DNA of 64,000 nt. It comes from Parcubacteria group bacterium. GTDB lineage: Bacteria; Patescibacteriota; Minisyncoccia; UBA6257; UBA11618. Positions 30,029 through 61,923 of this stretch are shown piece by piece (within the stretch, counting starts at the first letter, position 1; every line of letters begins with the position of its first letter). The notes below the pieces were generated by a model. It saw nothing but the letters and a program-made list of their open reading frames with translations, had not been told where the DNA came from and made no database searches. The position numbers and the translations under genes are program-made. Location: NCBI GenBank assembly GCA_943357895.1, contig CALRGO010000002.1, positions 25,926 to 89,925 on the forward strand. The letters are read 5' to 3'.

Positions 30029-31462
30029 TTATAATGCGAGGCCTGCGGGCGCGTATTTAAGAACTCGCTCACTTACGCGGGTGAAATAAGGATTATTCTG
30101 AGGGTATATGGGCGTGCTACGGCGAGCGTTATAGATAAGGGACGGAATCGCGAACGATTTCCACGGCTCTTCGTTGAATGACGCAAAAATTACGGGGTGC
30201 CCCGTGTACCCCCCGACGAACCCTCGATATATCGCATTGTTTATGAATATCGGCATGCCCCCGTACTTTCCTTGCAGGGCGGTAAGCTCGGCAAATTCTA
30301 CACGGTTCACGAGAGGTTCCATGCGTGCAGCTTGATACAGGGAATATCCTGCGAGCGCGGCTAGTATGAAAAATAACGCTATTTTTTTGAGGACTGTTTT
30401 TTGGCGGTATTCAAATAGGGAGAGCGCATACCCTGCAAGGACGATGCAGCTTATATCAAATAGCACGATGAACCGGTTGTGGAATACCGCATTGACCGAA
30501 ACGAGGACGAGATTTACAAGCGCGTACCATCCGACAGCCGGCATTGATTTTTTTCCCACGCACCATGCAATACCGAGAAGCGCGAATGGGACATAAAAAA
30601 GCATGAGCGCGTCATGGTAAAAGGAAAATCCAACGAAATGCCCCGCAAGAAGTCCCGATACAGAGGGTGCATACGTTTCTTGTGCGTAATCCGTTGCATA
30701 TGTTGCATAGCCGATTATTTCTTTCGCGTGGAATGCCGTCATGGCGAGTACTGAGATCGCTGCGGCTTTGAACGCATACGCTTTTTTATTATCTGTTATA
30801 CCTGCGGCAATAAAGGTTAGTGCAAGTGGAACCGCCGTAAGGGGGTGGATGATTCCCGCAAGTGCCGCGTATACGAATCCGCGCGTACGGGCTAAGCCGT
30901 AGGCATGGAGAGCGAAGAGCGAAAATGCCATACCTATTTCCATTTTAAGGAAGAACGACCAGTAAAAAAGAAATTGCGGCAGGGAAAGCGCGTAGGCTAT
31001 AAGGCTGGAGAACGCCGCTCGCGCGCCGAAGCGGTCTTTTGCGAGTACATATATCCCTCTGCCGATTACTGCAGTGGTCAGCAAATGGAATGCGATGAGA
31101 ATGGCTTGCGTTCCGATACCTGCGGCGTATAAGGGGAGGCCAGCAAGTGCAAGGGGGTTGCCTGCGCAGGAGGCGAGAGATGCGAAGCAGGTGTTCCATG
31201 CGCCGTAGTACGCCCCTATATCTGCTCCGAGTGCCGACCACCCGTAACGTATGAAGGGTATGAGGCGCGTAGTGGCGAGGATGGTTAGGGGGATAAGAAA
31301 TACGAAGAACGTGGGCTTACTACTTTCTATTTTTTGGGTATCGGCTCCGAGTGTTACGAAGACGCCCACCCCGAGCATGCAATAGAGCAAAAAAATCGGG
31401 ATGGTTGCGTGAAGCGGCGTTGCCAAAAGCACAAGCGCGAGATAGGTTGCTAGTACGTACAT
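30029..31462 (-). CDS. polytopic membrane protein, putative GT-C-type glycosyltransferase/polymerase
   Basis: About 11 predicted TM helices then soluble C-terminal domain; start set at Met 31462 because the longer ORF overlaps the divergent GT2 gene. Confidence 0.5.
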   Translation of the reverse strand: MYVLATYLALVLLATPLHATIPIFLLYCMLGVGVFVTLGADTQKIESSKPTFFVFLIPLTILATTRLIPFIRYGWSALGADIGAYYGAWNTCFASLASCAGNPLALAGLPLYAAGIGTQAILIAFHLLTTAVIGRGIYVLAKDRFGARAAFSSLIAYALSLPQFLFYWSFFLKMEIGMAFSLFALHAYGLARTRGFVYAALAGIIHPLTAVPLALTFIAAGITDNKKAYAFKAAAISVLAMTAFHAKEIIGYATYATDYAQETYAPSVSGLLAGHFVGFSFYHDALMLFYVPFALLGIAWCVGKKSMPAVGWYALVNLVLVSVNAVFHNRFIVLFDISCIVLAGYALSLFEYRQKTVLKKIALFFILAALAGYSLYQAARMEPLVNRVEFAELTALQGKYGGMPIFINNAIYRGFVGGYTGHPVIFASFNEEPWKSFAIPSLIYNARRSTPIYPQNNPYFTRVSERVLKYAPAGLAL

Positions 31463-31477
31463 GTCTGTATCATCGTA

Positions 31478-32149
31478 ATGAAAGGGATTGCTGTTGTCAT
31501 TCCCGCATATAATGAGAGTGCTCGCGTAGTAGCGGTTGCTTTGGGAGCCGCACGGCATGCGGAGTTCGTTATTGTGGTGGACGATGGGTCGCGCGACGGT
31601 ACATGGAAGGCGCTCGCGGATCTTCCTCGGCCCGTCTATGTTCTCCGGCACCGTGTGAATATGGGTAAGGGGGCAGCGCTTATGACGGGGTGTGCGGCGG
31701 CACTTCGCCTCGGGGCGGAAATTCTAGTCACAATGGACGCAGATGGTCAGCACCCCCCGGAATATATTCCCCGAATCATACGCCATATGCGCGAAAAAAA
31801 TCTTGATTTCGTTTTTACGGAGCGCATGGCGGGAAACCAAATGCCCTTCGTGCGGCGCGCGGGTAATTATGTGATCAATAAGACGGCGCTTCATTTATTT
31901 GGTTTGCGTACGAATGACGTATGGTGCGGATTCCGCGCAGTGCGCGCATCATGCTTACCGCGCGTCATGTGGCGCGCACGTGATTATTCGGGCGAAGTGC
32001 AGATGGCTCTCGCGGTGGGTCGTAGCGGCATGTCATACGGTTCGTATCCTATTCCCACTATTTATGATGCGGGCGCTGCTAAAGGTGTGCATATTTTACA
32101 CGGGCTTAAATTACTTGCGCAGATGGCGGTTTGGCGTTTTTTTAGTTAA
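31478..32149 (+). CDS. glycosyltransferase family 2 (polyprenol-phosphate sugar transferase-like)
   Basis: VVIPAYNE, DDGSRDGT and DADGQH motifs of GT-A fold GT2; 223 aa. Confidence 0.75.
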   Translation: MKGIAVVIPAYNESARVVAVALGAARHAEFVIVVDDGSRDGTWKALADLPRPVYVLRHRVNMGKGAALMTGCAAALRLGAEILVTMDADGQHPPEYIPRIIRHMREKNLDFVFTERMAGNQMPFVRRAGNYVINKTALHLFGLRTNDVWCGFRAVRASCLPRVMWRARDYSGEVQMALAVGRSGMSYGSYPIPTIYDAGAAKGVHILHGLKLLAQMAVWRFFS

Positions 32150-32160
32150 TTATAATTTCC

Positions 32161-33036
32161 ATGTCTGAAAAAATAATTCGGAGGGATCGTTGTCCATTGT
32201 GCGGCTTCAAGGCTAAATCTATTCTTTATGACGCCGATGTTGCTCATCCTTCCGTGGCTCATTTTTTAAAAGATTATTACAAGGGGCGCGTTACTATTGG
32301 GGATCTTAAGGAGTGGCGTTATCAAGTCGCAGAATGTCCATTGTGTGGGTTTATTTGGCAAACATACGTTTTAGGCGATACTTTGGCGCATAAGCTGTAT
32401 TCCGAATGGATATCCCCTTCCGAATCAATGGATAAGAAAAAGGCCGCGGGGATGGCACTTCGTCGCGGTTATGCGGAAGAGGCGGTCGCTATTTCCTTTT
32501 TAATTAAAAAGCCCGCTGAGCAGATTATTGTTTTAGATTATGGTATGGGATGGGGGCAATGGTGTTTTATGATGTGGGCTTTTGGATATAAGATTTTCGG
32601 ATACGAGATCGCGTCCGAGCGCGTATCTTCAGCGCAGGGGGCGGGTATATCCGTTCTCGATGACGACGCTTTTAAAACGATGCACTTCGACTTCGTTAAT
32701 TGCGAGCAGGTTCTCGAGCACGTTTCAAGTCCCCTCGAGACGTTTAAAAAATTAGCCCAATCTTTGAAATGCGGAGGTTACTTACGCGTAGCGGTTCCTA
32801 ACGGCGCCGGCATAAGGCGCGCTATGCAGGATCCTTTTTGGATCCCCGGCAAGAATGCTATACATCCGCTTGAGCATGTCAACTGTTTTACTCGAAAGAC
32901 ATTGGTTAATCTGGGTATTGCCGCTGGTTTGCGGCCACTTAGCCGCTTTGGTCTTTTGCGTGTATTTTTTTCTTCGCCGCGTTTATGTGTGCGGCATATT
33001 TTAGGCGGCACTTCCCTTTATTTCTTAAAAATTTGA
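32161..33036 (+). CDS. class I SAM-dependent methyltransferase with N-terminal zinc ribbon
   Basis: CPLCG...CPLCG pair, motif I VLDYGMGWGQW, motif FDFVNCEQVLEHV. Confidence 0.7.
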   Translation: MSEKIIRRDRCPLCGFKAKSILYDADVAHPSVAHFLKDYYKGRVTIGDLKEWRYQVAECPLCGFIWQTYVLGDTLAHKLYSEWISPSESMDKKKAAGMALRRGYAEEAVAISFLIKKPAEQIIVLDYGMGWGQWCFMMWAFGYKIFGYEIASERVSSAQGAGISVLDDDAFKTMHFDFVNCEQVLEHVSSPLETFKKLAQSLKCGGYLRVAVPNGAGIRRAMQDPFWIPGKNAIHPLEHVNCFTRKTLVNLGIAAGLRPLSRFGLLRVFFSSPRLCVRHILGGTSLYFLKI

Positions 33037-33061
33037 TAATCTTTCATAATCCAAGCAATCT

Positions 33062-33394
33062 ATGGTCGGTATTCAGCTTATATGTATTATCATCGGTCTT
33101 GCGGCAATTCATCTTACGCATTTGTATTATAAGCGTTTTTATTTTTCAAAAAGGGAGTTATTTTTTTGGGTGGGGCTTTGGTGTATTTTTATAGTAGTTG
33201 GGCTTTTTCCGCAGAGTGTTTTGCCGGTGAGTGGTTATTTAGGGCTAACCCGCCCTATGGATTTTATAATGATTCTGGCTTTTGTAGTCCTTTTTTCCCT
33301 TGCTTTTCATAATTATGTTCTTGGTCGTAAGCAGGAGCGCGATTTCGAGCGTTTGGTTCGCGAAATTGCCTTGCGAGATGCGAATTTGAAATAG
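33062..33394 (+). CDS. small membrane protein, DUF2304-like
   Basis: 110 aa, 3-4 TM helices with charged C-terminal tail; this kind of small membrane protein commonly accompanies GT2 genes. Confidence 0.5.
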   Translation: MVGIQLICIIIGLAAIHLTHLYYKRFYFSKRELFFWVGLWCIFIVVGLFPQSVLPVSGYLGLTRPMDFIMILAFVVLFSLAFHNYVLGRKQERDFERLVREIALRDANLK

Positions 33395-33397
33395 AAT

Positions 33398-34555
33398 ATG
33401 CATATCATATTTTTTGCGGCTTTTTACTATCCGTATCGCGGTGGATATGTTGAAAGTATCTATGAGGTTTCGCATGGCCTCGTCCGCCGCGGTTTTACCG
33501 TAACTATAGTCACTTGTAATACCCATGCCATAGCAGAAGAAGAAAACCATGAGGGGGTTCGTGTGGTACGTATTCCTTGCTGGAGCCCCGCATGGCTTCA
33601 TAGCAGCTTTCCTTTGCCGAAGCCATGGGCAATCTTTTCTTTCTTGTGGCGGTTCCGCGGCTGCCGCTTAGACGCCATAATTACGGAAACCCGTTTTTAT
33701 CCCACGACCTTTTTAGGATTCCTTATAGGGTTTTTTCGCAGGATACCGGTTGTGCATGTGGAGCAAGGAAGTTGCCATCCGGCAAGTCATAATTTCCTTA
33801 TCAGATGGATGGGCCTGCTTGTAGACCATACTTTTGGATCCGTTGTTTGTAGGAGTGCCACGGTAACAGTGGGCGTTTCTGCCGAAGCAGCGGCTTTTGC
33901 GCGGCATCTCGGCGCGCGGAATCCATTTGTTATTTATAATCCAGTTGATATAGCGTTTTGGCATTCGCAGTCGCTTGTTTATACGAAAGATGATTTTTTT
34001 CGCATTTTGTTCGTGGGGAGGCTCGTATATGCTAAGGGTGCCCAAGACCTTTTATATTCACTTGTTTCCTTGCGGGCGTCCCTCACGCAAAAAGAATTTA
34101 GTCGGTTGCGCTGCATCGTTATTGGAGATGGTCCATACCGCGCTTCACTCGTACGTCTTATTGAGTCTCTTTCGCTTTCACAGGTAGTTATTTTTTTAGG
34201 TGAATGTGGTCGTGCGGCTATTCGTGAAGAGCTTTGGCAGGCATCCGTTTTCGTTAATCCTTCATATTCCGAAGGCTTGCCAGTATGCGTTTTAGAGGCG
34301 GCGGCATGCGCGGTGCCAATAATTGCGACAGACGTCGGCGGGACGAGGGAGATTATTTCTGCAGGTTGCGGCTTACTCATTTTGCCACGTTCTCCGGATG
34401 CGCTTGCTGGTGGCATTGCTCGTGCTTTGCGCTACCCAGCTGAATTTCGGCGTTATGGTATAGCCGCCCGTGCCCGCTCTGAAGACTTTTTTTCAACTCC
34501 GCACATCGTCGATGCGTATGAGTCGACTCTCCGTTCGGCTACCTGTCATGCGTAA
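33398..34555 (+). CDS. glycosyltransferase family 4
   Basis: GT-B C-terminal motif EGLPVCVLEAAACAVPIIATDVGG. Confidence 0.8.
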   Translation: MHIIFFAAFYYPYRGGYVESIYEVSHGLVRRGFTVTIVTCNTHAIAEEENHEGVRVVRIPCWSPAWLHSSFPLPKPWAIFSFLWRFRGCRLDAIITETRFYPTTFLGFLIGFFRRIPVVHVEQGSCHPASHNFLIRWMGLLVDHTFGSVVCRSATVTVGVSAEAAAFARHLGARNPFVIYNPVDIAFWHSQSLVYTKDDFFRILFVGRLVYAKGAQDLLYSLVSLRASLTQKEFSRLRCIVIGDGPYRASLVRLIESLSLSQVVIFLGECGRAAIREELWQASVFVNPSYSEGLPVCVLEAAACAVPIIATDVGGTREIISAGCGLLILPRSPDALAGGIARALRYPAEFRRYGIAARARSEDFFSTPHIVDAYESTLRSATCHA

Positions 34556-35768
34556 TGTCCTTATTTTTTCCGTTGATTATTTCCCGTACGTCGGAGGCGC
34601 GGAGATTGCGGTGCGTGAGACGTGTAAGCGTATCCCTGACTGCGCATTTACTCTTATAACGTGCCGGAATAGCCGTATTCTTCCGCGACATGAAATTATT
34701 GATGGTGTTTCGGTTTTTCGTGTCGGCATTGGCTTCCGACATATCGATAAATACATCATGCCTTTTACTGCTTTCGTTACCGCGATTCAGTTAAACCGCA
34801 AGCGCCGCTTTTCTATGGCATGGGCAATCATGGCTAATACGGGGGCTATCGCGGCGTTCGTATTCACAAGGCTGTATCCGAATGTTCGTTATCTTTTGAC
34901 TTTGCAAGAAGGCGATTCCGATTCGTATTATCGGAATCGTACGTGGTTTTGGGCTCCTTTGTATCGCGCACTTCATGCGCGCGCTGATCATATGCATGTT
35001 ATTAGTAATCATCTTGCCGCGCGTGCCCGTCGATTCGGCTATCGTGGGTCCGTTTCGGTTATTCCTAACGGCATTGATCCGGCGTTATTCAATATAGACC
35101 CCCTTTCACCCGAATTGATCGCGTGTATAAGAAAGGATATGGGTATTTTACAAGGTGAACAGATTATCATTACCACTTCCCGCTTAGAAGAAAAAAATGG
35201 CATTGATATTTTTTTACGTGCGATTGCTATCGTTACGCGCGATATTACATTACCAATCAAGGCTGTTGTTGCTGGATCGGGTAGCGAAGAAAAACGCCTT
35301 AAGCAGATTGCTGTGGATCTCGGTGTCGCCGATTCGGTTATTTTTTTAGGTTATAGCGTTCATGAAAAGATGCTACGCCTGCTGAAAGCGTCGTCCGTTT
35401 TTGTGCGACCTTCCCGCTCGGAGGGATTGGGTAATAGTTTTCTTGAGGCGATGGCATGCGGCATACCGATTATAGGAACGCCCGTCGGCGGTATACCCGA
35501 TTTTCTTATTGATGGGAAAACGGGCCTTTTTTCTAACCCGGAAGATCCGGCATCTCTTGCCGATGCCATACGACGGATACTTTCTGATGGTCAGCTGCGG
35601 AACGTTTTGGTTACAGGCGGAATTGCCGCGGTGGAAAAAACCTATTTATGGGATTCTATTGCATCAAAAATTTCATCTATGCTCAATCAGACGCTGAAAT
35701 GCCGCGCGCATGACGTTGTATATACCGAGAGCGAAAAAAATAAGCATAAGCAGAACAAAGGGAAGTAA
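34548..35768 (+). CDS. glycosyltransferase family 4
   Basis: Start at Met overlapping previous stop by 8 nt; EGLGNSFLEAMACGIPIIGTPVGG motif. Confidence 0.8.
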   Translation: MRNVLIFSVDYFPYVGGAEIAVRETCKRIPDCAFTLITCRNSRILPRHEIIDGVSVFRVGIGFRHIDKYIMPFTAFVTAIQLNRKRRFSMAWAIMANTGAIAAFVFTRLYPNVRYLLTLQEGDSDSYYRNRTWFWAPLYRALHARADHMHVISNHLAARARRFGYRGSVSVIPNGIDPALFNIDPLSPELIACIRKDMGILQGEQIIITTSRLEEKNGIDIFLRAIAIVTRDITLPIKAVVAGSGSEEKRLKQIAVDLGVADSVIFLGYSVHEKMLRLLKASSVFVRPSRSEGLGNSFLEAMACGIPIIGTPVGGIPDFLIDGKTGLFSNPEDPASLADAIRRILSDGQLRNVLVTGGIAAVEKTYLWDSIASKISSMLNQTLKCRAHDVVYTESEKNKHKQNKGK

Positions 35769-47380: not shown

Positions 47381-47382
47381 TA

Positions 47383-48992: not shown

Positions 48993-49003
48993 GAAAATAG
49001 GTT

Positions 49004-54390: not shown

Positions 54391-54394
54391 ACCC

Positions 54395-55009
54395 TTACGG
54401 GATGGGCTTCCCGACTACTTCCAGTTCGTATGCACCAATCCAGTCTTTTTCAGCCTGCGCCTTGAGGCGTAGGTGGGAGGTTTGCATGCGGTCGTTTATG
54501 ACTGTTTTCACGTCTGCTGGAGAAGGTCCGCTCGCGAGTACTTTCCATGCGGATCCGTTATCCGAAGATTCAAGGGACCATGACCGTATGTAATTTGTAT
54601 TTACTCCGTAATCCCCCCAGCGTATGATAATTTGTTTGATCTCGTAGCTGTCGAGGAGAGTCACGGTATAATCTATTGTATTGCTTCCGGGTGCCGCGAG
54701 CGTTTCCTCTGATCCATCGATTAGCTTTTCTGCGCCTCTTCCTTGGCCGATACTGAGGTCTGAGCGTTCGGGGGTATTGCTTATAACGGACATTTCGTTC
54801 GGCGCGAGGCGTCGGAACGTCGTCATTTCCGTTCCTATGTCCGATTTTCCGCAAATGAAGCTTGCGGGAGAAAGATCAAATTTAAATCCGGTGCCAAGAC
54901 ATGCTCGGACGATAAGAGCCGCCATTCCGACGGAAAGGCATACAGATATGATTATGCCGACTGTTAGTGTCCGTAAAAATCCTTTTTCCATTGCTTTGAT
55001 TGTAGTCAC
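54395..55009 (-). CDS. membrane-anchored discoidin (F5/8 type C)-like carbohydrate-binding protein
   Basis: N-terminal TM; LIDGSEETLAAPG...IRWGD...WSLESSDNGSAWKVL pattern resembles discoidin/CBM32 domains. Confidence 0.5.
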   Translation of the reverse strand: MTTIKAMEKGFLRTLTVGIIISVCLSVGMAALIVRACLGTGFKFDLSPASFICGKSDIGTEMTTFRRLAPNEMSVISNTPERSDLSIGQGRGAEKLIDGSEETLAAPGSNTIDYTVTLLDSYEIKQIIIRWGDYGVNTNYIRSWSLESSDNGSAWKVLASGPSPADVKTVINDRMQTSHLRLKAQAEKDWIGAYELEVVGKPIP

Positions 55010-55090: not shown

Positions 55091-56590
55091 ATGCGCTTTA
55101 TTTCTTTTATTCATTCTCTGCACGTCGTTATCGCCTGCATTCTCGGTGTCGGGATTTATTGGCTCGCCGCGCCGCTTGGTTGGATAGGGGCTCTAATAGC
55201 CGTTCTGTCTATGATGGTGACGGTCGGCATTGCGGATCGATTGTCGAGTGCGGGCGTGCGTACCTTATTCCTCATATGCGTTCTTTTCCATATAGCGGGG
55301 TTTACGGTCATCGCCTATCCGTCGGCGCAGGATGCGTATAACCGCTACGGTGATTTCCATAGCGGCATTACCGATGCGAATTACGGGAATATTCTTTTGC
55401 AGCCGTGGCACGCCGCTCCCGTTCTCAGGCTTTTTTTTGCGGAAGGTAAAATAGTCAAAGGTGTTATCAATTTTATCCGGCCTCCTGCAGGAGAAAGCGA
55501 AAGCATCGATGCTGCCGTCGAAGCTATTATTGCCATCGGAATCGTAAGCAGGATCGTGGCATTTGTCCTCTTTTATTTTTTCGTACAATCAGCCGGCCTC
55601 CGAGCGCGCGCCGTTGCCGCGGCACTTCTTATTTTTACTTTCCAATATACGAATATTGCATTGACCCAGAGCATGAAGTTTGTCGCCGGCCTGCCATTTT
55701 TTATGTTCTGGTTAGTAAGTTTTTCGGAGTACGAAAGAACGGGACATAGGCGATGGCTCGCGGCGCACGTCATGGCTCTTCCCCTCCTGCTTATTTCAGA
55801 ACAATGGATTATCTTCTTCGTTGCGGCGCTGTATCTCCTCTATCCTTTTTTCAGGCGGGGCGCCGGCATTCCGTTACGCGTCTTCGATGTTTTCGGCACC
55901 GCCCTAGTCGCGTTCGCTTCGACCACCCTGTATTTTTTGGAATGGGGACGTATAACAAGCAATCACATCCCGCTTTTGCCTCTTGTGCCGTCAGCATTCC
56001 GTTCCGCTTATTTGCATGAATATCCCGCACTCCTCCTCATTTTTTCAATCGCTTGCGGAATAGGTTTGTGTATATATAAAAAAACATTCGGATTTTCCGG
56101 TAAAAAATTTCTGTCGCTCGGCATTGTTCCCTACGCGATCTTTATGCAATCGCTTATTTTCCTTAACCCCGCGATGTTCCTTCAAAAAAATTTCTTATTA
56201 TTTTTTTTACCGTATTGGCTTCTTGTTTCATGTTCTCTCGGTATGATTATTCGCAATGCCTTCGTTGTGCGCAAGATCGACGCCGTTGCGGTTTTAGCTC
56301 TTGTTGCATGGACTATCGGATCTTTGCCTCAGATATTCCTTATGTTGGGTGCTTCCATGCCGACGTCGCCCGTTCTCGACGTAATTATCCTGCCGTTGCT
56401 CGTTGGGGTTGCTAGTAGAGACGCACATAAGGCATTTCTCCTATTTTTTACTCTTGTCGTTCTTGTTGGATTCCTTTCTGTATATAAATTACTGGTATAT
56501 ACGGACGGATGGGCGCGCGCGGGCGTGTTACTTCCCGTAATCCTCGTTCCGATTGCAATCGCCATTACCCGAAAATACCGTTATGCGTAA
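55091..56590 (+). CDS. polytopic membrane protein (GT-C/polymerase-like)
   Basis: About 13 TM helices; 499 aa; no soluble catalytic domain recognisable. Confidence 0.5.
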   Translation: MRFISFIHSLHVVIACILGVGIYWLAAPLGWIGALIAVLSMMVTVGIADRLSSAGVRTLFLICVLFHIAGFTVIAYPSAQDAYNRYGDFHSGITDANYGNILLQPWHAAPVLRLFFAEGKIVKGVINFIRPPAGESESIDAAVEAIIAIGIVSRIVAFVLFYFFVQSAGLRARAVAAALLIFTFQYTNIALTQSMKFVAGLPFFMFWLVSFSEYERTGHRRWLAAHVMALPLLLISEQWIIFFVAALYLLYPFFRRGAGIPLRVFDVFGTALVAFASTTLYFLEWGRITSNHIPLLPLVPSAFRSAYLHEYPALLLIFSIACGIGLCIYKKTFGFSGKKFLSLGIVPYAIFMQSLIFLNPAMFLQKNFLLFFLPYWLLVSCSLGMIIRNAFVVRKIDAVAVLALVAWTIGSLPQIFLMLGASMPTSPVLDVIILPLLVGVASRDAHKAFLLFFTLVVLVGFLSVYKLLVYTDGWARAGVLLPVILVPIAIAITRKYRYA

Positions 56591-57083
56591 TATTTTCACT
56601 TACAGTTGCGCTTTTTTTGCCTGTGTTTCTATTTTTTCTTTCGCGGGTATTTTGCATATCGAAGAAAGCGTTTTACTTTCGGGGGCGGACTTAGTGCCCG
56701 AAACGATAACGGTGCGGAGTGTGTACGGCGATGTTATTCTCAGGAGAACCGCCTATGCCCCCTTTTCTCTTTGGTTTGCGCGGGGTACGTATGCAGGCGC
56801 CGTTGCTAGTGGGCAGTCCCTTGAAAACTCTTTGGTTATACGGGGTGATGAAGTGGCTTCGTTCTCGTCCGCTTATCCCGAGTGGCGGGTATTCGCCGTC
56901 ATGAAGGCGCAGGATGTTGCCGGCAATGAACATTCATGTAATCTCCAGAGATTGTTCGGGGATACAACCTTACGGAGCTATAATTGCGCTCTCGATAAGG
57001 AAAAAATAACGTCCCTTTCTATCATCTTCGTCAAGCCTACTTCGTTGCGGGAAAAAATAACGATACTTGGCGAATCATTGTGA
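56583..57083 (+). CDS. secreted hypothetical protein
   Basis: Start at Met overlapping upstream stop by 8 nt; signal peptide MRNIFTYSCAFFACVSIFSFAG. Confidence 0.4.
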   Translation: MRNIFTYSCAFFACVSIFSFAGILHIEESVLLSGADLVPETITVRSVYGDVILRRTAYAPFSLWFARGTYAGAVASGQSLENSLVIRGDEVASFSSAYPEWRVFAVMKAQDVAGNEHSCNLQRLFGDTTLRSYNCALDKEKITSLSIIFVKPTSLREKITILGESL

Positions 57084-59372
57084 TTAGCGCAAAGACTTTT
57101 CGTACCCGTTCCAATCGATGCGGAAAATACGCGCTTTCGATTGGGAATTAGTTTCGTAATTGGAATATATTTCTTTTAGGTAGGGCGGTATTGTTTCGCC
57201 GGTATAAATCAATAAATATTTATTAGGCACGAACGGTAGCGGATTGAATATCTGGTCTTCGAGGAGAATATGGGTCACTTTGCGGGTACGGAGCACCGGC
57301 ATGGCTTCGGTAATCGAATCGAATTTTCCCGGATAGGTAAGACTGAGGCCGGATTGCGGGGCTATGATATCCTGCAATCCCCTTCCCCCGATTTTAGCGT
57401 CGGGTAAAAGCATCATTATATCGATACCATTTCCCGTAGCGAGTACGCCCTTTACGTTCGTCGATGCCCATAAAGCGACCTGCAGTCTATCTCTATTCAT
57501 GCGGGAAATATCCTTGACGAAAAGCCGTGCCACAAATATGAATGTCGAGAGCGAAACGCAGAGCAAGATTATCTGAGAGGCGGCGAACATGCCGAAGAAT
57601 AGGCGCTCGTCCCGTACGTCGTGCGGCGCCGTAGCGCGGAGCCCTGCCACCGCAACTAGTATGCCTAAGGGGGCGATTGGGAAAACATGCCGAAGGAGAT
57701 AATACAGATGGAAAATAGGTATAAGGCTCATAATCCATATCCCTATGGCGGCCCATACGGGAAACCATACGGGATCGCGCCATGTGCGAACAGCACCCTG
57801 CAGAAAGAAAAAAAGCTGGGGGAGAATACTATACGCGAAATAGAGCAGGACGAGGCATATCCCCGTCGTTATGAAGCGGTTGAATATTTCCGCGGCGGTA
57901 TGCGTCTTAAGATAATGCGGCAGGGTTACGGAAGGCGCCGCCCCCCATACGTCCACGTAGCGTTCTACAAAATATTTACTATTCTCACCGTAATTAAATG
58001 CTGATCCGAATTCCGCCTGCCGCATCAAGAGCATCGGCGAGGCGACGGCAAAAAAAATCGCAATCATGGCCGCCGACCTAAGCAGGAGTCCGCCTAGCGG
58101 CATTTTTTTCCACGCCCAGCATGATACGAGCACTATAGGTAGGACTATTATTCCGTTTGGGCGCACCCAATACGTAAGTCCCGCCACCCCGCTTGCGGCA
58201 TAGGCGAATGCTGGATTATCCCGTGCCTTATAAACGAAGCAAATTGCCGTAAGAAAAAGGAGGGTAAAAAGAGGCTCGGTTAAGATAAAGAGGTTATCCG
58301 ATATAATAAGAGGAAAAGAAAATATAAAGGCTATAAGGGCGGCGTCAATGGTTTTTTTTGATGCGGTGAGCCTGAAGGCCAGCCATCCTATGGGGAATAC
58401 GGCTGCCGCGCCGGTTACCGCAGTAATAAGTATTCCAACGAGCAAGTTTTCAAATATGGATGTAGCTCCCCATGCGTAGAGGAAGGGCGCCATGAATGCC
58501 GATAATCCTATTGCATGCGTTCGTATGGGCGACCAGTCGCCGCGCACTATTTCGAGCGCCTTAAGAATATATATATACGAATCATATTTTTGTATGGGAA
58601 ACATGACGATGTACGATACGTACATTTCAAGGCCGATGCGTACTGCGGCGGCAATAAGGAAAAAACAGAAAATACGTAAAAGGGGTATTTTTTTTATCCG
58701 CTCTTCATAGAGGATATTTTCAATGACTGATTGTACTGCTCGGCGTGCGAGCATGATTCTATTGCGGCACCAGTCAAAAAAACTTATTGTATTTGTTTTC
58801 CGAGCAGCGGTTATCGTATCAATAATACGGATGTCTTTAAAAAATCGCGATCGGTATACAGATTTTTTAACCACGGCGACAGGGCCGAGCCATGCGAGTA
58901 TTTCAGGCGAGGAGCACGTGTCGTGAAAAGCTATCGTCGCGCCTAGGGCGAGCTTCGGTGACCATAGCTCGAAATCACGCGTAACCATTTCGAGCGCATG
59001 ATCCCCATCGATAAAAAGCAGCTCTATTGGTAAATTGAATGTTTCAGCCGCTTTTTCGGAGGTCATGACGAGCGGCCGCACTACGGAAGAAAGTCCGGCG
59101 CGCTCCATATTATTTTGAAATATATCAAATGTTTTGAAATCGCCCTGTTCTGGTAGTCCGTTGTGGGGATCAACGGCATATACAGGAACGCCGTTACCAG
59201 CCTGCGAGCCTGCGCCTAAAAAAACCGCTGATTTCCCCTGCCATGAGCCGATTTCAACGATAACTCCTTTTCCCGTGCACCGCTTGGCACAGTCATATAA
59301 AAATGCGCCCTCTTTTGCCGTGAGCCAGCCGTGAACCGCCTCCGTATTTTTTTTAGCTTCTTTCAGCTCCAT
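57084..59372 (-). CDS. fusion protein: N-terminal class I SAM-dependent methyltransferase + C-terminal polytopic GT-C-like membrane domain
   Basis: N-terminal ~230 aa with GVIVEIGSWQGKSAVFL and LLFIDGDHALE (CmcI/TylF-like MTase); followed by ~500 aa with >12 TM helices; 762 aa. Confidence 0.6.
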   Translation of the reverse strand: MELKEAKKNTEAVHGWLTAKEGAFLYDCAKRCTGKGVIVEIGSWQGKSAVFLGAGSQAGNGVPVYAVDPHNGLPEQGDFKTFDIFQNNMERAGLSSVVRPLVMTSEKAAETFNLPIELLFIDGDHALEMVTRDFELWSPKLALGATIAFHDTCSSPEILAWLGPVAVVKKSVYRSRFFKDIRIIDTITAARKTNTISFFDWCRNRIMLARRAVQSVIENILYEERIKKIPLLRIFCFFLIAAAVRIGLEMYVSYIVMFPIQKYDSYIYILKALEIVRGDWSPIRTHAIGLSAFMAPFLYAWGATSIFENLLVGILITAVTGAAAVFPIGWLAFRLTASKKTIDAALIAFIFSFPLIISDNLFILTEPLFTLLFLTAICFVYKARDNPAFAYAASGVAGLTYWVRPNGIIVLPIVLVSCWAWKKMPLGGLLLRSAAMIAIFFAVASPMLLMRQAEFGSAFNYGENSKYFVERYVDVWGAAPSVTLPHYLKTHTAAEIFNRFITTGICLVLLYFAYSILPQLFFFLQGAVRTWRDPVWFPVWAAIGIWIMSLIPIFHLYYLLRHVFPIAPLGILVAVAGLRATAPHDVRDERLFFGMFAASQIILLCVSLSTFIFVARLFVKDISRMNRDRLQVALWASTNVKGVLATGNGIDIMMLLPDAKIGGRGLQDIIAPQSGLSLTYPGKFDSITEAMPVLRTRKVTHILLEDQIFNPLPFVPNKYLLIYTGETIPPYLKEIYSNYETNSQSKARIFRIDWNGYEKSLR

Positions 59373-59399
59373 AATTTGAAGTAGTATGGCATGTATGTA

Positions 59400-60488
59400 T
59401 TAGTAATTGCCATTATTGTACGTACGGAATCGCGCGCTTGACCATGAATGAATTGGTTTTTCAAGCATATGATACGAAATAAGGGCGACGGGAACAAGGA
59501 ATAAGGGCATTGAAAGCGGCGAAGAATCCCTATAGAAGGCGGGATTGTTCGTAAAAGGTTGCTGCCATAGATACAGGCTATAGGAAGCCAGTCCTATGTT
59601 TCGCATATAATGGAAAGCCCGCGACGCGAGAAATCGGGGGATGTGGCGCAACGCCATAATAAGGCGCAGGATCGCGAACGACGAGAGTAGAGCATATGCG
59701 AATTGTTCGGGGGCATGGCTCGTTTTTGCAGATACGAGAAATAATATACCCATAAAAAGAGCGCTTACTCCAGTAAGGGGCGCGCTCGGGATATTCACAT
59801 AGTGGCGTACGGTAGAACTCGCGGCATAGAGCGCTCCTCCGGCAATGGATGCGAATGCCCATCCGTTGTCTATCCAGCCGTGCATGAAAAATATCTTAAA
59901 TGCTGAAAATACCGAAAAAAGAACACACAGGGCGGCAATGGTAGGCGTTCGCCGAAGCGCCGGAAGTAGCAGTATAAATAATGGCCAAACGGCATAAAAC
60001 TGTTCTTCTACCGAAAGGCTCCAGAGATGGAGCAGATTCCATGTGCAGGGAGTCGCCGAAGCATTTGCGAGGAATGCAATGCAAGAAATGTTCGAACGGT
60101 CGATCGTTGCCGTCCATCCGAGCGCGGCGAAAAGCCCCATGCCGAGAAGATAGCCGGCATAGGCGGGAATAATTCTGAAAAACCGCCGGAGATAGAATTT
60201 TGCAATAGAAATACTTCCTGTCCGATCAAGCTCGCTGATAAGTATTTTCGTTATGAGGAATCCACTTATTACAAGGAATATTTTTACGCCCACGTCTCCA
60301 GCATGCCAACTGACTGTCAGGAAGGCGCGGATAAAATTTTTTTCGTAGGCGGTGTTTCCGAGCGAGACGAAAAACGAATGAAAGCGGAAAAATACCAGAT
60401 GACTTTCTATGACGAGTATAATGCTTATCCCCCGCCAAAAGTCGAGTACGGGATCACGGCCGTCCTTATACCGTTCCGGTTGTTCCAT
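59400..60488 (-). CDS. acyltransferase family 3 (OafA/YrhL-like) membrane O-acyltransferase
   Basis: DFWRGISIILVIESHL N-terminal motif, 10 TM helices. Confidence 0.75.
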   Translation of the reverse strand: MEQPERYKDGRDPVLDFWRGISIILVIESHLVFFRFHSFFVSLGNTAYEKNFIRAFLTVSWHAGDVGVKIFLVISGFLITKILISELDRTGSISIAKFYLRRFFRIIPAYAGYLLGMGLFAALGWTATIDRSNISCIAFLANASATPCTWNLLHLWSLSVEEQFYAVWPLFILLLPALRRTPTIAALCVLFSVFSAFKIFFMHGWIDNGWAFASIAGGALYAASSTVRHYVNIPSAPLTGVSALFMGILFLVSAKTSHAPEQFAYALLSSFAILRLIMALRHIPRFLASRAFHYMRNIGLASYSLYLWQQPFTNNPAFYRDSSPLSMPLFLVPVALISYHMLEKPIHSWSSARFRTYNNGNY

Positions 60489-61923
60489 GGCTCCCCTTTT
60501 CGAAGTATTCCGCTTCGCTGCCGACGGCCTCGATGTCTTCGCGTATGCCTGTTATTACGCTCCGCGCTGCCATAATTCCCATTTCGAGCGAGTGATCTTG
60601 GTTATTGTAACGGAATCTGCCGGGGCGGCCGATGTAATACAGGTTTTCGAAGCGGTCTAAATAGGCTTTTACTGAATCTACGTATGTTTTGTATTCGGTG
60701 TCGTATATCGGGTACACCTTTTTTTGGCGCATGAGGTAGCTTTGCCGTACTTCGCTCCGTTTGCAGAAGCCGAGGGGTTCGAGGTGCTTCATCGTCATTT
60801 CGAGCAATTCTTCCTTCGTCGCGTTCCAGACAGCGTCCCCCTCGAAACAGAAAAATTCCAAAAAGAGCGACGTTTTTCCATGCGGGCTCATTTTTTGGCT
60901 GAAATTATTCATCTCCGTAATCCTACCGAAGGGAATATGTTTTTCGGGGAAATAGATCCATTGGTCGCGCGTAATGCGTTCCTTATCGAGGGTGATGAAG
61001 AGATATACTTGGTCGCGATAGCGCATTTTTTCCGCTGCCGCCGTAATTGCCGCGGGCGGGGCAGGGTCGAGCAGTTTTAAAAATTCCTTCGGCGGGATGC
61101 TCTCAATAAGCGTCTTCGGGGTTATTTCTTTCAGCGCTCCTTTTACGGATACCGTAAGTCCCGTTATGCGGTTGTTATGGTGGCGAATGCGCACGGGATA
61201 ACTTTCGAGTTCCACGGGATTGCCGGCGTCCGCGATCTTTTTCGCGATTGTTTCATAAATAAGCCCCGTACCATATTCGGGGTAATAGAAGCTGTCTACG
61301 AGAGTACGGAGCCCTTTCGTACGGAAAAGGCCGAGCGTCCGCTCCGCTGCGGCTTTCACGAGGAAGCCAACGGACAGTCCCTTAATGCGCTGCGTTGCCC
61401 AGTCTGTATGTATGGTGTTCGCTTTTACACCCCAGATCTTTTCCGTGTAATTGATCATATTAAACTCGGCGAGCGTCCTGCCGAAGTGCGCCACGACATG
61501 GTCTTCGAAATGGCGAATTGGTTTTTTGAAAAGCCCGTAACGGAGCTGGGCGGCAGCGTAGTCCGCTACCATGCGCGTGGCCTTTCGTGGCCCGATATTG
61601 GCGAGTGCTTGGGCGGGGTTGATTGGGTAGTCGTAGAATTTGCCCGCGATGAACTGGCGCGTTTGGCGCTTTACTTCTATCCAGTTTTCTTTGATGAGCC
61701 CTTCGATGAAGCCGTAAAGGTATGGGTTTTTGGAAAAGAAGCGGTGCGGGCCGTTATCCGTGCGGAACGTGAGTCCGTCTGGCTCCGTAAACAAATAGGT
61801 CTTTGCGAGGCCGCCCACGCGGTCGGATTTCTCATAGAGCGTAAAATTCTTTCCGGCGTGCGTAAGTTCCATTGCTGCGGCGAGCCCCGCGGGGCCGGCG
61901 CCCAGAATACACGTCTCTTTCAT
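60466..61923 (-). CDS. FAD-dependent UDP-galactopyranose mutase-like enzyme
   Basis: ILGAGPAGLAAA Rossmann motif, EKSDRVGG, GPHRFF, NYTEKIWGV (cf. UGM YTEKQWG) and C-terminal GRPGRFRYNNQDHSLEMG (cf. UGM GRLAEYKYYDMHQVI); 485 aa. Confidence 0.55.
   Translation of the reverse strand: MKETCILGAGPAGLAAAMELTHAGKNFTLYEKSDRVGGLAKTYLFTEPDGLTFRTDNGPHRFFSKNPYLYGFIEGLIKENWIEVKRQTRQFIAGKFYDYPINPAQALANIGPRKATRMVADYAAAQLRYGLFKKPIRHFEDHVVAHFGRTLAEFNMINYTEKIWGVKANTIHTDWATQRIKGLSVGFLVKAAAERTLGLFRTKGLRTLVDSFYYPEYGTGLIYETIAKKIADAGNPVELESYPVRIRHHNNRITGLTVSVKGALKEITPKTLIESIPPKEFLKLLDPAPPAAITAAAEKMRYRDQVYLFITLDKERITRDQWIYFPEKHIPFGRITEMNNFSQKMSPHGKTSLFLEFFCFEGDAVWNATKEELLEMTMKHLEPLGFCKRSEVRQSYLMRQKKVYPIYDTEYKTYVDSVKAYLDRFENLYYIGRPGRFRYNNQDHSLEMGIMAARSVITGIREDIEAVGSEAEYFEKGSHGTTGTV

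What the first reader, a model, noticed from the sequence alone, without database searches (positions are those of the whole stretch)
30029..61923. ~32 kb envelope glycan biosynthesis island between gatB and rplK
It holds eight GT4 genes, one GT2, one GT-A-like unknown, at least five polytopic GT-C-like membrane proteins, seven SAM methyltransferases, a CE4 deacetylase, an acyltransferase-3, a MOP flippase, a discoidin-domain protein and a UGM-like mutase. Stops and starts are tightly coupled (ATGA and 4-8 nt overlaps), implying long operons. The island separates rplK from rplJ-rplL, which are normally contiguous with rplA; rplA is absent from the window. The density of methyltransferases predicts a heavily O-methylated polysaccharide or glycoprotein glycan. 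The UGM-like and DPPRS-like genes predict furanose sugars (Galf, Ribf/Araf). This combination is formally arabinogalactan-like and, to my knowledge, is not described for reduced-genome (CPR-like) bacteria.
Basis: partly seen in the sequence, partly recalled or inferred. Interest (0 to 1): 0.7.

Follow-up and report, generated by a model that had tools for sequence, protein, structure and literature searches.

The report
Strain-variable surface-sugar gene island in Harrisonbacteria
A tiny-genome (CPR) bacterium carries a 33 kb, strain-variable block of genes for building a decorated cell-surface sugar polymer, using known types of membrane-lipid-linked sugar-adding systems that I found no report of in this bacterial group.

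Summary
The gene cluster is real and is a true island. A close relative (L005) goes straight from rplK to gatB, so window 28594-62006 (33.4 kb) is an insertion. Two near-identical strains (89% DNA identity in the flank) lose all similarity exactly at the 3' end of the UGM-like gene.

Gene content is mostly as described, with corrections:
- There are seven GT4 genes, not eight.
- Three GT-C enzymes are proven by fold or profile. Two further membrane proteins and the "MOP flippase" stay unassigned.
- gatB lies one gene further left than stated.
- rplA loss and the rplK/rplJ split predate the island.

The "arabinogalactan-like" reading is only partly right. The UbiA gene, a HAD phosphatase, a GalE-type SDR and a divergent GT-C with a PA14 sugar-binding domain match the pentofuranose "three-component" system of Kelly et al. 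2024. There is no DprE1/DprE2, so ribo- or xylofuranose is as likely as arabinofuranose. GT2 plus DUF2304 matches the GacI/GacJ (PpgS/Rv3632) lipid-sugar synthase pair. The flavoenzyme keeps the catalytic residues of eukaryote-type UDP-galactopyranose mutase.

Verdict: a new member of known kinds, of moderate interest because the CPR envelope is uncharted.

The parts
28621..29976 (-). 451-aa membrane-anchored, Gly-rich protein with two PG_binding_1 repeats. It lies inside the indel but is not a biosynthetic enzyme.
   Evidence: Pfam PG_binding_1 E 3.8e-11. One predicted TM segment. Absent between rplK and gatB in L005.
30029..31462 (-). 477-aa polytopic membrane protein (about 10 TM), transcribed divergently from GT2-DUF2304. 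Candidate GT-C that would use the GT2 product; its fold was not established.
   Evidence: No Pfam, NCBIfam or PDB match. A homologue holds the same divergent position next to GT2-DUF2304 in L083/L084 (45% identity) and L086 (39% identity, E 2e-28). Its 90% cluster has 8 members, so it is conserved across strains.
31478..32149 (+). GT2 of the polyprenyl-phosphate sugar synthase type (GacI/PpgS/GtrB-like).
   Evidence: Pfam Glycos_transf_2 E 3e-25. Best NCBIfam match is PpgS at 85 bits, below its cut-off of 370.
32161..33036 (+). SAM methyltransferase (Methyltransf_23) with an N-terminal Cys-rich segment. It is inserted between GT2 and DUF2304 in this genome only.
   Evidence: Absent from the equivalent position in L083/L084/L086.
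33062..33394 (+). DUF2304 small 3-TM protein, a GacJ/Rv3632-type activator of the GT2 synthase.
   Evidence: Pfam DUF2304 at 80.8 bits against a cut-off of 25.5. The role of GacJ/Rv3632 is from bioRxiv 10.1101/180810.
33398..35768 (+). Two GT4 glycosyltransferases (33398-34555 and about 34551-35768).
   Evidence: Pfam Glycos_transf_1 E 1e-33 and 2e-40.
35673..37790 (-). 705-aa GT-C glycosyltransferase. A PA14 carbohydrate-binding domain (about residues 95-260) sits between three N-terminal TM helices and the GT-C core. Invariant Asp341 lies in the first outer loop of the core.
37757..38644 (+). UbiA-family polyprenyl-phosphate phosphoribosyltransferase (PPPRS/DPPRS-like).
   Evidence: PDB 8j8j (Rv3806c) E 1.9e-30. 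NCBIfam DPPRS 163 bits, below the cut-off of 207, and HAD-UbiA fusion family PRK08238 at 148 bits. Motif NDIIDRDDD matches N247/D248/D251/D255 of ORF15 (sequence; PMC11127046).
38641..39351 (+). SAM methyltransferase (Methyltransf_11/25), conserved between UbiA and the SDR.
   Evidence: Same position in the relative's locus.
39348..40379 (+). Extended SDR epimerase/dehydratase (motifs TGGSGFLG and YGKAK). Candidate epimerase acting on the lipid-linked pentofuranose.
   Evidence: Pfam Epimerase E 3.5e-36. PDB matches are generic extended SDRs. Conserved within the UbiA module in L083 and absent in L086.
40376..40831 (+). 151-aa HAD-type phosphatase. Candidate phosphoribose 5-phosphatase (equivalent to the PRP domain).
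   Evidence: NCBIfam YqeG HAD-IIIA E 4.8e-8, 33 bits, below cut-off. Conserved DVEGT, S59, K85 and GDKxxTD. A 149-150-aa gene sits at the same place in L083 and L086.
40828..44127 (+). Three GT4 glycosyltransferases (40828, 41925, 43066).
44124..46181 (+). Methyltransferase (weak Methyltransf_11 match), CE4 polysaccharide deacetylase, and methyltransferase (Methyltransf_23).
46178..50137 (+). GT4, a 342-357-aa protein with no detectable family (contains a CDDDKY stretch), a Methyltransf_24 methyltransferase, and another GT4.
50111..51301 (-). 386-396-aa polytopic membrane protein. Possible flippase, untested.
   Evidence: No Pfam, NCBIfam or PDB match. Ten homologues, none with a Pfam domain.
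51279..52562 (-). Membrane-anchored (3 TM) SAM methyltransferase.
52564..54390 (-). 608-aa GT-C glycosyltransferase with a small C-terminal globular domain.
54395..55009 (-). Membrane-anchored F5/8 type C (discoidin) carbohydrate-binding protein. It is conserved upstream of the GT-C genes in the relatives' islands.
   Evidence: Homologues in L003, L004, L006, L007 and a weak F5_F8_type_C gene in L085.
55091..57083 (+). 499-aa 12-TM protein with a YGDFH loop motif (family undetermined), followed by a 166-176-aa anchored protein.
   Evidence: Two tandem paralogues each in L003 and L004.
57084..59372 (-). Fusion of a Methyltransf_24 domain (residues 39-152) with a PMT_2-like GT-C membrane domain.
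   Evidence: Pfam E 8e-23. hhalign to the 705-aa GT-C family: probability 96%, E 3.6e-9, 320 columns.
59400..60488 (-). Acyltransferase-3 family membrane O-acyltransferase.
60466..61923 (-). FAD-dependent UGM-like pyranose/furanose mutase (NCBIfam PRK07208 family). It is the conserved right-hand edge of the island.
   Evidence: NCBIfam 430.7 bits against a cut-off of 389. PDB T. cruzi UGM 4dsg E 2e-26 over residues 5-459 with catalytic residues conserved. 95% identical in L003/L004, and similarity ends at its 3' end. GC3 0.63.
61951..61983 (.). A-run, 6-bp GC-rich hairpin and T-run between the rplK stop and the mutase start. A terminator-like element that would separate the island from the ribosomal-protein operon.
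   Evidence: Read directly from the sequence printed.

Best explanation
Window 28.6-62.0 kb is a strain-variable locus for a decorated cell-surface glycan in a Candidatus Harrisonbacteria genome. It lies between the conserved neighbours rplK and gatB.

Proposed working (steps marked shown or inferred):
1. Seven cytoplasmic GT4 enzymes, and possibly the unassigned 357-aa protein, build a glycan backbone on an unidentified primer (inferred). No priming phosphoglycosyltransferase is present in the window (shown).
2. The backbone is exported, perhaps by the unassigned 396-aa membrane protein (inferred).
3. At least three GT-C enzymes decorate it outside the membrane using polyprenyl-monophosphate sugars. 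The GT-C folds are shown; the acceptor is inferred.
4. Two donor-making modules are recognisable.
   a. GT2 plus DUF2304, a GacI/GacJ- or PpgS/Rv3632-type lipid-P-(N-acetyl)hexosamine or hexose synthase. It is paired divergently with the 477-aa membrane protein.
   b. A UbiA phosphoribosyltransferase plus a HAD phosphatase making polyprenyl-P-ribofuranose from PRPP. A GalE-type SDR probably epimerises it, giving a xylo- or arabino-configured pentofuranose. This module is paired divergently with the PA14-bearing GT-C. Homology and motifs are shown; chemistry is inferred.
5. A UGM-like flavoenzyme supplies a nucleotide-activated hexofuranose (inferred from conserved catalytic residues).
6. Seven methyltransferases, a CE4 deacetylase and an acyltransferase-3 tailor the product (inferred).

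The conserved edge genes with an unrelated interior between near-identical strains suggest replacement by homologous recombination, as at O-antigen and capsule loci.
For: Island status:
- L005 is collinear with window 64000-62007 and then jumps to 28593, continuing through gatB, thrS and dnaE.
- nusG-rplK-gatB adjacency holds in about 50 of 80 Parcubacteria loci.
- The island is seen only in the window, L003, L004, L006 and L007.

Hypervariability:
- L003 and L004 share 89% nucleotide identity down to about 60450, then almost none: L003 has no further match, and L004 has one 484-nt stretch at 72% in the membrane-anchored methyltransferase gene.
- Proteins fall from 95-100% identity (NusG, L11, mutase) to 31-42% for most interior genes (67% for that methyltransferase).
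- 90% clusters hold 14 members (mutase) and 8 (477-aa edge protein), against 1-4 for interior genes.
- GC3 and codon usage are distinct from the flanks.

GT-C enzymes.

Pentofuranose module:
- UbiA matches Rv3806c at E 2e-30 and carries the NDxxDxxxD motif.
- The HAD protein has the loop-I Asp.
- The SDR has TGxxGxxG and YxxxK (sequence).
- The same order (GT-C divergent from UbiA-MT-SDR-HAD) occurs in a 52%-identical relative. UbiA plus a 150-aa gene without the SDR occurs in a 32%-identical relative, matching the optional epimerase described in PMC11127046.

Other parts:
- GT2-DUF2304 pairing.
- Mutase residues equivalent to TcUGM H62, R176, Y317, R327, Y395, R423 and Y429 are conserved.
- Tailoring enzymes.
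Against: - No priming phosphoglycosyltransferase, Wzy, Wzz, ABC exporter or LCP ligase was recognised in the window, so the backbone pathway and the acceptor are unknown.
- The flippase is unidentified.
- UbiA, HAD and GT2 all score below the curated NCBIfam cut-offs for their closest named families.
- The SDR is a generic extended SDR and could act on a nucleotide sugar instead.
- One distant homologue of the PA14 GT-C sits next to a GT2 plus an epimerase rather than UbiA, so that GT-C family is not tied to pentofuranose donors.
- No biochemical or expression data exist.
Confidence: 0.7

Rival explanations
1. The locus is chiefly a protein-glycosylation system for an S-layer protein, pilin or other surface protein. 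One or more GT-C enzymes would act as oligosaccharyltransferase or protein O-glycosyltransferase. This is not exclusive of the main explanation, because it differs only in the acceptor.
For: - The 705-aa family matches Pfam PMT_2.
- No polysaccharide polymerase, ligase or priming enzyme is present in the window.
Against: - I did not see the WWDYG motif of STT3/AglB/PglB in the invariant-column summary of the 608-aa family. No dedicated motif search was run.
- Fold similarity does not reveal the acceptor.
Confidence: 0.25
2. One reading: an arabinogalactan-like polymer containing Galf and D-Araf, made by a DPA-type pathway as in Corynebacteriales.
For: - DPPRS-like UbiA.
- UGM-like enzyme with an intact active site.
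- A PpgS/Rv3632-like pair plus a CE4 deacetylase echoes the GalN decoration of mycobacterial arabinan.
Against: - No DprE1, DprE2 or Rv3807c homologues. The only flavoprotein is UGM-like, the SDR is of the extended type, and the phosphatase is HAD.
- In PMC11127046, Araf systems carried DprE1/E2 homologues, while a GalE-like SDR gave Xylf.
- No GlfT-type GT2: GlfT1 scores 25.9 bits against a cut-off of 330.
Confidence: 0.15
3. A membrane-anchored lipoglycan of the LM/LAM type. GT4 enzymes would extend a glycolipid primer in the cytoplasm, and GT-C enzymes would extend and decorate it outside.
For: - No phosphoglycosyltransferase is present.
Against: - No inositol or lipid-anchor enzymes were recognised.
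- A priming enzyme may simply be encoded elsewhere, as WecA is for many O-antigens (PMC11127046).
Confidence: 0.15
4. An ordinary capsule or teichoic-type locus with no furanose chemistry. The UbiA and flavoprotein genes would have unrelated roles, for example quinone or carotenoid metabolism.
For: - UbiA and the adjacent methyltransferase (weak UbiE-family match, E 8e-8) could superficially suggest prenylquinone chemistry.
- The flavoprotein also matches the amine-oxidase and phytoene-desaturase superfamily.
Against: - Among UbiA-family NCBIfam models the top matches are the three DPPRS models and the HAD-UbiA fusion family PRK08238 (123-163 bits). Heme O synthase and other prenyltransferases score 54 bits or less.
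- The full-length best PDB matches of the flavoprotein are UGMs, with catalytic residues kept.
- Both genes sit within glycan genes in several independent loci.
Confidence: 0.07

Closest known systems
Pentofuranose three-component side-chain system of Citrobacter youngae O1/O2 (ORF15 PPPRS-PRP, ORF14 MATE flippase, ORF12 GT-C/GT136 with CBM, ORF13 SDR epimerase; Kelly et al. 2024, PMC11127046)
   Same: - A UbiA-type phosphoribosyltransferase related to Rv3806c with the same Asp-rich motif.
- A HAD-type phosphatase with the loop-I Asp.
- An optional GalE-like SDR.
- A GT-C enzyme that carries a carbohydrate-binding domain.
- All of these clustered inside a glycan locus.
   Different: - PPPRS and phosphatase are separate genes here, not one fusion protein.
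- The binding domain is a PA14 fold placed before the GT-C core, not a C-terminal CBM.
- A methyltransferase is a conserved member of the module.
- No MATE flippase was recognised.
- GT136 membership of the GT-C could not be tested.
- The host is a CPR bacterium with no outer membrane or LPS.
Mycobacterial arabinogalactan/LAM pathway (Rv3806c DPPRS, Rv3807c, DprE1/DprE2, Emb/Aft GT-Cs, Glf/GlfT1/GlfT2, PpgS-Rv3632-Rv3779)
   Same: - A DPPRS-like enzyme.
- Several GT-C enzymes using lipid-linked donors.
- A pyranose/furanose mutase.
- A PpgS/Rv3632-like GT2-DUF2304 pair.
   Different: - No DprE1, DprE2, PAP2 phosphatase or GlfT homologues.
- The mutase is of the eukaryote-like PRK07208 type, not bacterial Glf (TIGR00031 scores 49 bits against a cut-off of 304).
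- The GT-C enzymes share only the fold with Aft/Emb.
GacI/GacJ/GacK/GacL GlcNAc side-chain system of the streptococcal group A carbohydrate (Rush et al., bioRxiv 10.1101/180810)
   Same: A GT2 lipid-P-sugar synthase next to a DUF2304 activator, with a polytopic membrane protein as the presumed GT-C user.
   Different: - The sugar is unknown.
- A methyltransferase is inserted between the GT2 and DUF2304 genes in this genome.
- The partner membrane protein has no proven GT-C fold.
- No Wzx-type flippase was identified.
Hypervariable O-antigen and capsule loci flanked by conserved genes (for example between galF and gnd in Enterobacteriaceae)
   Same: - A fixed chromosomal site.
- Conserved edge genes.
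- Lower GC than the flanks.
- Interior replaced between near-identical strains.
- No integrase or flanking repeats.
   Different: - The flanks are rplK and gatB.
- Recognisable Wzx/Wzy/Wzz or ABC-transporter genes are missing.
- GT-C enzymes are unusually numerous.

Membership tests
Pentofuranose three-component system (PMC11127046) | UbiA-family polyprenyl-phosphate phosphoribosyltransferase related to DPPRS, with the N-D-x-x-D-x-x-x-D motif | tested here: met
   PDB 8j8j E 1.9e-30. Among UbiA-family NCBIfam models the DPPRS models score highest, though 163 bits is below the cut-off of 207. Motif NDIIDRDDD is present (sequence compared).
Pentofuranose three-component system (PMC11127046) | HAD-family phosphoribose phosphatase with a catalytic Asp in loop I | tested here: inconclusive
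   The 151-aa protein matches YqeG HAD-IIIA at only 33 bits against a cut-off of 89. DVEGT, S, K and GDKxxTD are conserved in two genomes. The second acidic residue is Glu, not Asp. No PRP-specific model was available.
Pentofuranose three-component system (PMC11127046) | GT-C fold transferase encoded alongside, with a carbohydrate-binding module | tested here: met
   [not shown]
Pentofuranose three-component system (PMC11127046) | The GT-C belongs to CAZy family GT136 | not testable with these tools
   No ORF12/GT136 sequence or CAZy model was available. Family members match Pfam PMT_2.
Pentofuranose three-component system (PMC11127046) | MATE-family flippase for the lipid-linked donor | tested here: inconclusive
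   The only candidate (50111-51301) has no Pfam, NCBIfam or PDB match, and its homologues carry no Pfam domain. It was not modelled.
Pentofuranose three-component system (PMC11127046) | Optional cytoplasmic GalE-like SDR epimerase with TGxxGxxG and YxxxK | tested here: met
   TGGSGFLG and YGKAK in 39348-40379. Pfam Epimerase E 3.5e-36. The substrate is untested.
Mycobacterial DPA/arabinogalactan pathway | DprE1 (FAD/VAO-type oxidase) and DprE2 (classical SDR) epimerase pair | tested here: not met
   No such domains in any island gene. The only flavoprotein is UGM-like, and the only SDR is of the extended type.
Mycobacterial DPA/arabinogalactan pathway | Emb/Aft-family arabinofuranosyltransferases (sequence families) | tested here: not met
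   No Pfam or NCBIfam match to arabinosyltransferase families. Only fold-level similarity, ranking below OST, ArnT and PMT enzymes.
Mycobacterial DPA/arabinogalactan pathway | Galactofuranosyltransferases GlfT1/GlfT2 | tested here: not met
   The single GT2 scores 25.9 bits against the GlfT1 cut-off of 330. Its best match is PpgS.
UDP-galactopyranose mutase (eukaryote-type) | FAD Rossmann motif plus the histidine loop and the Arg/Tyr residues that bind the substrate | tested here: met
   The alignment to T. cruzi UGM 4dsg covers residues 5-459. GxGxxG is present, the loop reads GPH (GGH in UGM), and equivalents of R176, Y317, R327, Y395, R423, Y429 and the NQDHS segment are conserved (residue numbers are from my own knowledge of TcUGM).
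UDP-galactopyranose mutase (bacterial Glf, TIGR00031) | Score above the curated equivalog cut-off | tested here: not met
   49.3 bits against a cut-off of 303.75. It belongs instead to the uncharacterised family PRK07208 (430.7 bits against 389).
GacI/GacJ (PpgS/Rv3632) lipid-P-sugar synthase pair | DUF2304 small membrane protein encoded with a GT2 synthase | tested here: met
   DUF2304 scores 80.8 bits against a cut-off of 25.5, and the GT2 lies 0.9 kb upstream. The two are directly adjacent in relatives. The GT2 itself is below the PpgS cut-off, 85 against 370.
   Met for 35673-37790, 52564-54390 and 57084-59372 (hhalign 96%). Undetermined for 30029-31462 and 55091-56590. hhalign also fails to link the two proven GT-C enzymes (7.7%), so those negatives carry little weight.
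Wzx/Wzy- or ABC-transporter-dependent polysaccharide locus | Priming phosphoglycosyltransferase, polymerase, chain-length regulator or ABC exporter | tested here: not met
   None was recognised among the ORFs of about 100 aa or more that I scanned across the window, including every ORF taken as an island gene. They may be encoded elsewhere in the genome.

The most novel reading that the evidence does not exclude
Harrisonbacteria, and perhaps other Parcubacteria, devote roughly 3-5% of a genome of about 1 Mb or less to a surface glycan. The glycan would be largely assembled outside the membrane by an unusually large set of GT-C enzymes. It would carry furanose and O-methyl sugars and be swapped wholesale between strains. 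It would then be the main determinant of host attachment or phage susceptibility in these episymbionts. This would be the first report I am aware of, in the CPR, of a PRPP-derived lipid-pentofuranose pathway and of a eukaryote-type pyranose/furanose mutase. Its module layout would be new: split PPPRS and phosphatase, an embedded methyltransferase, and PA14 placed ahead of the GT-C core.
Probability: 0.3. Interest if true: 0.6.

Novelty: new member of a known kind. Interest (0 to 1): 0.45.

Why it matters
The structure and assembly of the CPR cell envelope are still described as unclear (PMC5220378). These organisms live attached to host cells, so surface glycans are likely to matter for host recognition and phage defence.

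This locus gives concrete, testable predictions:
- Lipid-linked pentofuranose and hexofuranose donors.
- Heavy O-methylation.
- Extracytoplasmic GT-C decoration.
- A fixed chromosomal site (rplK-gatB) where glycan diversity between strains can be surveyed in metagenomes.

It also extends the pentofuranose three-component pathway, defined in 2024, to a deep bacterial lineage. It adds two or more sequence-dark GT-C families, one with 2316 relatives. None of the individual parts is new in kind.

Tried and rejected
Searches that gave nothing:
- Pfam at E up to 10 and NCBIfam at E up to 0.1 for the polytopic proteins and the two small unknowns.
- Sequence or profile searches of the PDB for the 477-aa, 499-aa, 396-aa and 357-aa proteins.
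- hhalign of the 499-aa and 477-aa families against the two proven GT-C families. These negatives carry little weight, because hhalign also fails to link the two proven GT-C families.
- All-against-all phmmer of island proteins. Only the GT4 genes and the methyltransferases are detectably related to each other.
- Flanking direct or inverted repeats, integrase or tRNA at the island edges. None was found, so I rejected a mobile-element origin.
- Rfam. Only the two tRNAs matched.
- The promoter/terminator scan of 29800-38000 was no better than shuffled sequence.
- Literature searches for CPR together with galactofuranose, decaprenyl or GT-C, and for PRK07208.
- Source names of clustered proteins were uninformative: 'NAD(P)-binding protein' and 'hypothetical protein'.

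Not available: the AFDB fold library.

Ideas rejected:
- That the 220-aa ORF upstream of rplJ is rplA. It is TrmD.
- That 28621-29976 is gatB or gatA. It is a PG_binding protein.

Full report
ORGANISM AND SETTING

The window is part of a 206 kb metagenomic contig. The NusG protein at 62469-63032 is 99-100% identical to proteins from Candidatus Harrisonbacteria MAGs. Its next relatives are Wolfebacteria, Liptonbacteria and other Parcubacteria.

The flanks hold housekeeping genes:
- gatB at 27202-28611, a threonyl-tRNA synthetase, and dnaE.
- rplJ-rplL at 16092-16986.
- rplK at 62002-62427, followed by nusG, secE and gyrB.

No L1 gene is present in the window. The 220-aa ORF upstream of rplJ is TrmD. 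Loss of L1 defines the OD1-L1 group of Parcubacteria (PMC5220378).

THE OBSERVATION

Pfam scans of 30 ORFs between 30029 and 61923 found:
- seven SAM methyltransferases;
- a CE4 deacetylase, an acyltransferase-3 and a discoidin-domain protein;
- a UbiA-family protein, an extended SDR and a flavoprotein.

Eight ORFs had no match, five of them polytopic membrane proteins. The 762-aa methyltransferase fusion is a sixth polytopic protein; only its N-terminal domain matched Pfam. Eight ATGA overlaps link the + strand genes between 37757 and 50137. The gene adjoining the cluster on the left (28621-29976) is not gatB. It is a membrane-anchored, Gly-rich protein with peptidoglycan-binding repeats.

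IS IT AN ISLAND?

Yes.
- In about 50 of 80 Parcubacteria loci, nusG-rplK is followed by gatB within 0-5 kb. Island genes follow rplK only in the window and in four close relatives: L003, L004, L006 and L007.
- At the DNA level, L005 (NusG 91% identical) is collinear with window 64000-62007. It then jumps to 28593 and continues through gatB, thrS and dnaE. Window 28594-62006 (33.4 kb) is therefore an indel, and it includes the peptidoglycan-binding protein.
- rplA never follows rplK in these relatives. The split of rplK from rplJ-rplL predates the island and is not caused by it.
- L003 and L004 are 89% identical to the window from 64000 down to about 60450, which is the 3' end of the flavoprotein gene. 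Beyond that point L003 has no detectable DNA similarity. L004 has one 484-nt stretch at 72% in the membrane-anchored methyltransferase gene.
- Their proteins drop from 95-100% identity to 31-42% for most interior genes (67% for that methyltransferase), with genes gained and lost.
- Clusters at 90% identity hold 14 members for the flavoprotein and 8 for the left-edge 477-aa protein. Interior genes have 1-4.
- Island GC is 0.473, against 0.50-0.53 in the flanks. GC3 is 0.34-0.56 against 0.47-0.73. The flavoprotein gene (GC3 0.63) resembles the housekeeping genes.
- No repeats, integrase or tRNA mark the edges.
- A hairpin flanked by A- and T-runs lies between rplK and the island.

This is the pattern of a hypervariable surface-glycan locus exchanged by recombination in conserved flanks. 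It is not the pattern of a mobile element.

THE MEMBRANE PROTEINS

The 608-aa protein (52564-54390)
- It has 22 homologues, none with a Pfam domain.
- An AlphaFold model built from 19 sequences is confident: pLDDT 85, pTM 0.90.

The 705-aa protein (35673-37790)
- The word-based search found only five close homologues.
- A profile search of 1.84 billion representatives found 2316 relatives.
- Of 50 aligned members, 28 match Pfam PMT_2 and 13 match PA14.
- It is a GT-C enzyme with a PA14 domain placed between three N-terminal helices and the GT-C core.

The 762-aa protein (57084-59372)
- Its membrane part aligns to the 705-aa family at hhalign probability 96%, so it is a methyltransferase-GT-C fusion.
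- In L006 the methyltransferase part is a separate or broken ORF. In L007 no homolog of it was detected upstream of the GT-C gene.

The undetermined proteins
- The 477-aa and 499-aa proteins could not be assigned.
- These negatives are weak, because hhalign also fails to connect the two proven GT-C families.
- The 396-aa 'flippase' and the 357-aa 'GT-A-like' protein match nothing.

DONOR-MAKING MODULES

The pentofuranose module
- The UbiA protein is closest to decaprenyl-phosphate phosphoribosyltransferase: PDB 8j8j, E 1.9e-30. NCBIfam DPPRS scores 163 bits, below the cut-off of 207. The HAD-UbiA fusion family PRK08238 scores 148 bits.
- It carries NDIIDRDDD, the N-D-x-x-D-x-x-x-D motif shown to be essential in C. 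youngae ORF15 and Rv3806c.
- Downstream lie a methyltransferase, an extended SDR with TGGSGFLG and YGKAK, and a 151-aa HAD-type protein. The HAD protein has a conserved loop-I Asp (DVEGT), Ser, Lys and GDKxxTD.
- The PA14 GT-C is transcribed divergently from this operon.
- The same arrangement occurs in a relative whose GT-C is 52% identical.
- A 32%-identical homologue sits next to UbiA plus a 150-aa gene with no SDR.
- Another homologue sits next to a GT2 plus an epimerase instead.

This matches the system defined by Kelly et al. 2024 (PMC11127046). In that system:
- a UbiA-type synthase with a HAD phosphatase makes polyprenyl-P-ribofuranose from PRPP;
- an optional GalE-like SDR converts it to the xylo epimer (DprE1/E2 homologues give arabino);
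- a flippase exports it;
- a GT-C carrying a carbohydrate-binding module adds it to a finished glycan.

The window has no DprE1/E2 homologue. Arabinofuranose is therefore not specifically predicted.

The GT2-DUF2304 module
- The GT2 (best NCBIfam match PpgS, 85 bits, below cut-off) and the DUF2304 protein match the GacI/GacJ and PpgS/Rv3632 pairs.
- In those pairs the small protein stimulates a lipid-P-HexNAc synthase, and a GT-C enzyme uses the product (bioRxiv 10.1101/180810).
- The 477-aa membrane protein is divergently paired with GT2-DUF2304 in three different loci. That is circumstantial support for it being the user enzyme.

THE FLAVOPROTEIN

- It belongs to the uncharacterised NCBIfam family PRK07208 (430.7 bits). 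It fails the bacterial Glf model, scoring 49 bits against a cut-off of 304.
- Its best solved relatives are eukaryote-type UDP-galactopyranose mutases: T. cruzi 4dsg at E 2e-26 over residues 5-459, and A. fumigatus at E 1e-17.
- In the alignment the histidine loop reads GPH (GGH in UGM).
- The equivalents of TcUGM R176, Y317, R327, Y395, R423 and Y429, and the NQDHS segment, are all conserved. The residue numbers come from my own knowledge of that enzyme.
- A nucleotide-sugar pyranose/furanose mutase is the most likely function. The substrate is unknown.

WHAT IS MISSING

- No priming phosphoglycosyltransferase, polymerase, chain-length regulator, ABC exporter or LCP ligase was recognised anywhere in the window.
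- The acceptor could be a polysaccharide, a lipoglycan or a protein. It cannot be decided from the sequence.

COMPARISON AND NOVELTY

Each recognisable part belongs to a known kind:
- a hypervariable glycan locus;
- a pentofuranose three-component system;
- a GacI/GacJ-type synthase pair;
- a UGM-like mutase;
- GT4 enzymes and tailoring enzymes.

[quoted passage not shown] Their main text has no occurrence of 'Patescibacteria', 'Candidatus' or 'phyla'. My literature searches found no paper linking CPR bacteria with furanose, decaprenyl or GT-C chemistry. A Parcubacteria genome paper notes many glycosyltransferases and an unknown envelope.

The variant features are:
- split PPPRS and phosphatase genes;
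- an embedded methyltransferase;
- PA14 placed ahead of the GT-C core;
- a methyltransferase-GT-C fusion;
- at least three GT-C enzymes in one locus of a very small genome.

I rate it a new member of known kinds, with moderate interest.

Noticed in passing
window 62002-64000 and 27202-28611; loci L005, L009-L082: nusG-rplK is followed by gatB in about 50 of 80 Parcubacteria loci, directly or within a few kb. rplA is absent there. The classical rplKAJL cluster appears to be rearranged in many lineages of this group.
   Followed up: partly
window 28621-29976 (-): A 451-aa protein with an N-terminal anchor, a run of about 20 Gly/Ser residues and two PG_binding_1 repeats lies inside the indel. A 503-aa counterpart sits at the same place in a related genome.
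   Followed up: partly
window 57084-59372; L006 10585-13036; L007 12420-14057: The methyltransferase-GT-C fusion is intact in the window. In L006 the methyltransferase part is split into separate ORFs. In L007 no homolog of the methyltransferase part was detected upstream of the GT-C gene.
   Followed up: partly
L003 10232-13740; L004 12643-16067: Relatives carry two tandem, diverged paralogues (24-31% identity) of the unassigned 499-aa membrane protein. The window has one. All share a YGDFH loop motif.
   Followed up: no
window 25942-27147 (+): The threonyl-tRNA synthetase is only 401 aa and matches positions 166-544 of the 565-position model. It seems to lack the N-terminal TGS/editing region.
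   Followed up: no
window 19975-20700 (-): NusB is 241 aa, and the NusB match starts at residue 92. It therefore has an N-terminal extension of about 90 residues with no recognised family, or the true start lies further downstream.
   Followed up: no
window 17290-17745 (-): An FHA-domain protein lies just upstream of rplJ, where rplA would classically be.
   Followed up: no
window 61951-61983: An A-run, a 6-bp GC hairpin and a T-run lie between the rplK stop and the start of the mutase gene. It looks like a two-way terminator.
   Followed up: no
contig with P0002 (289 kb), L085, L086: Related islands swap the variable part for other tailoring genes: a sulfotransferase, a His_Phos_1 phosphatase, asparagine synthase-like amidotransferases and DUF2334. 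This suggests sulfated or amidated variants of the glycan.
   Followed up: no
[not shown]
   Followed up: no
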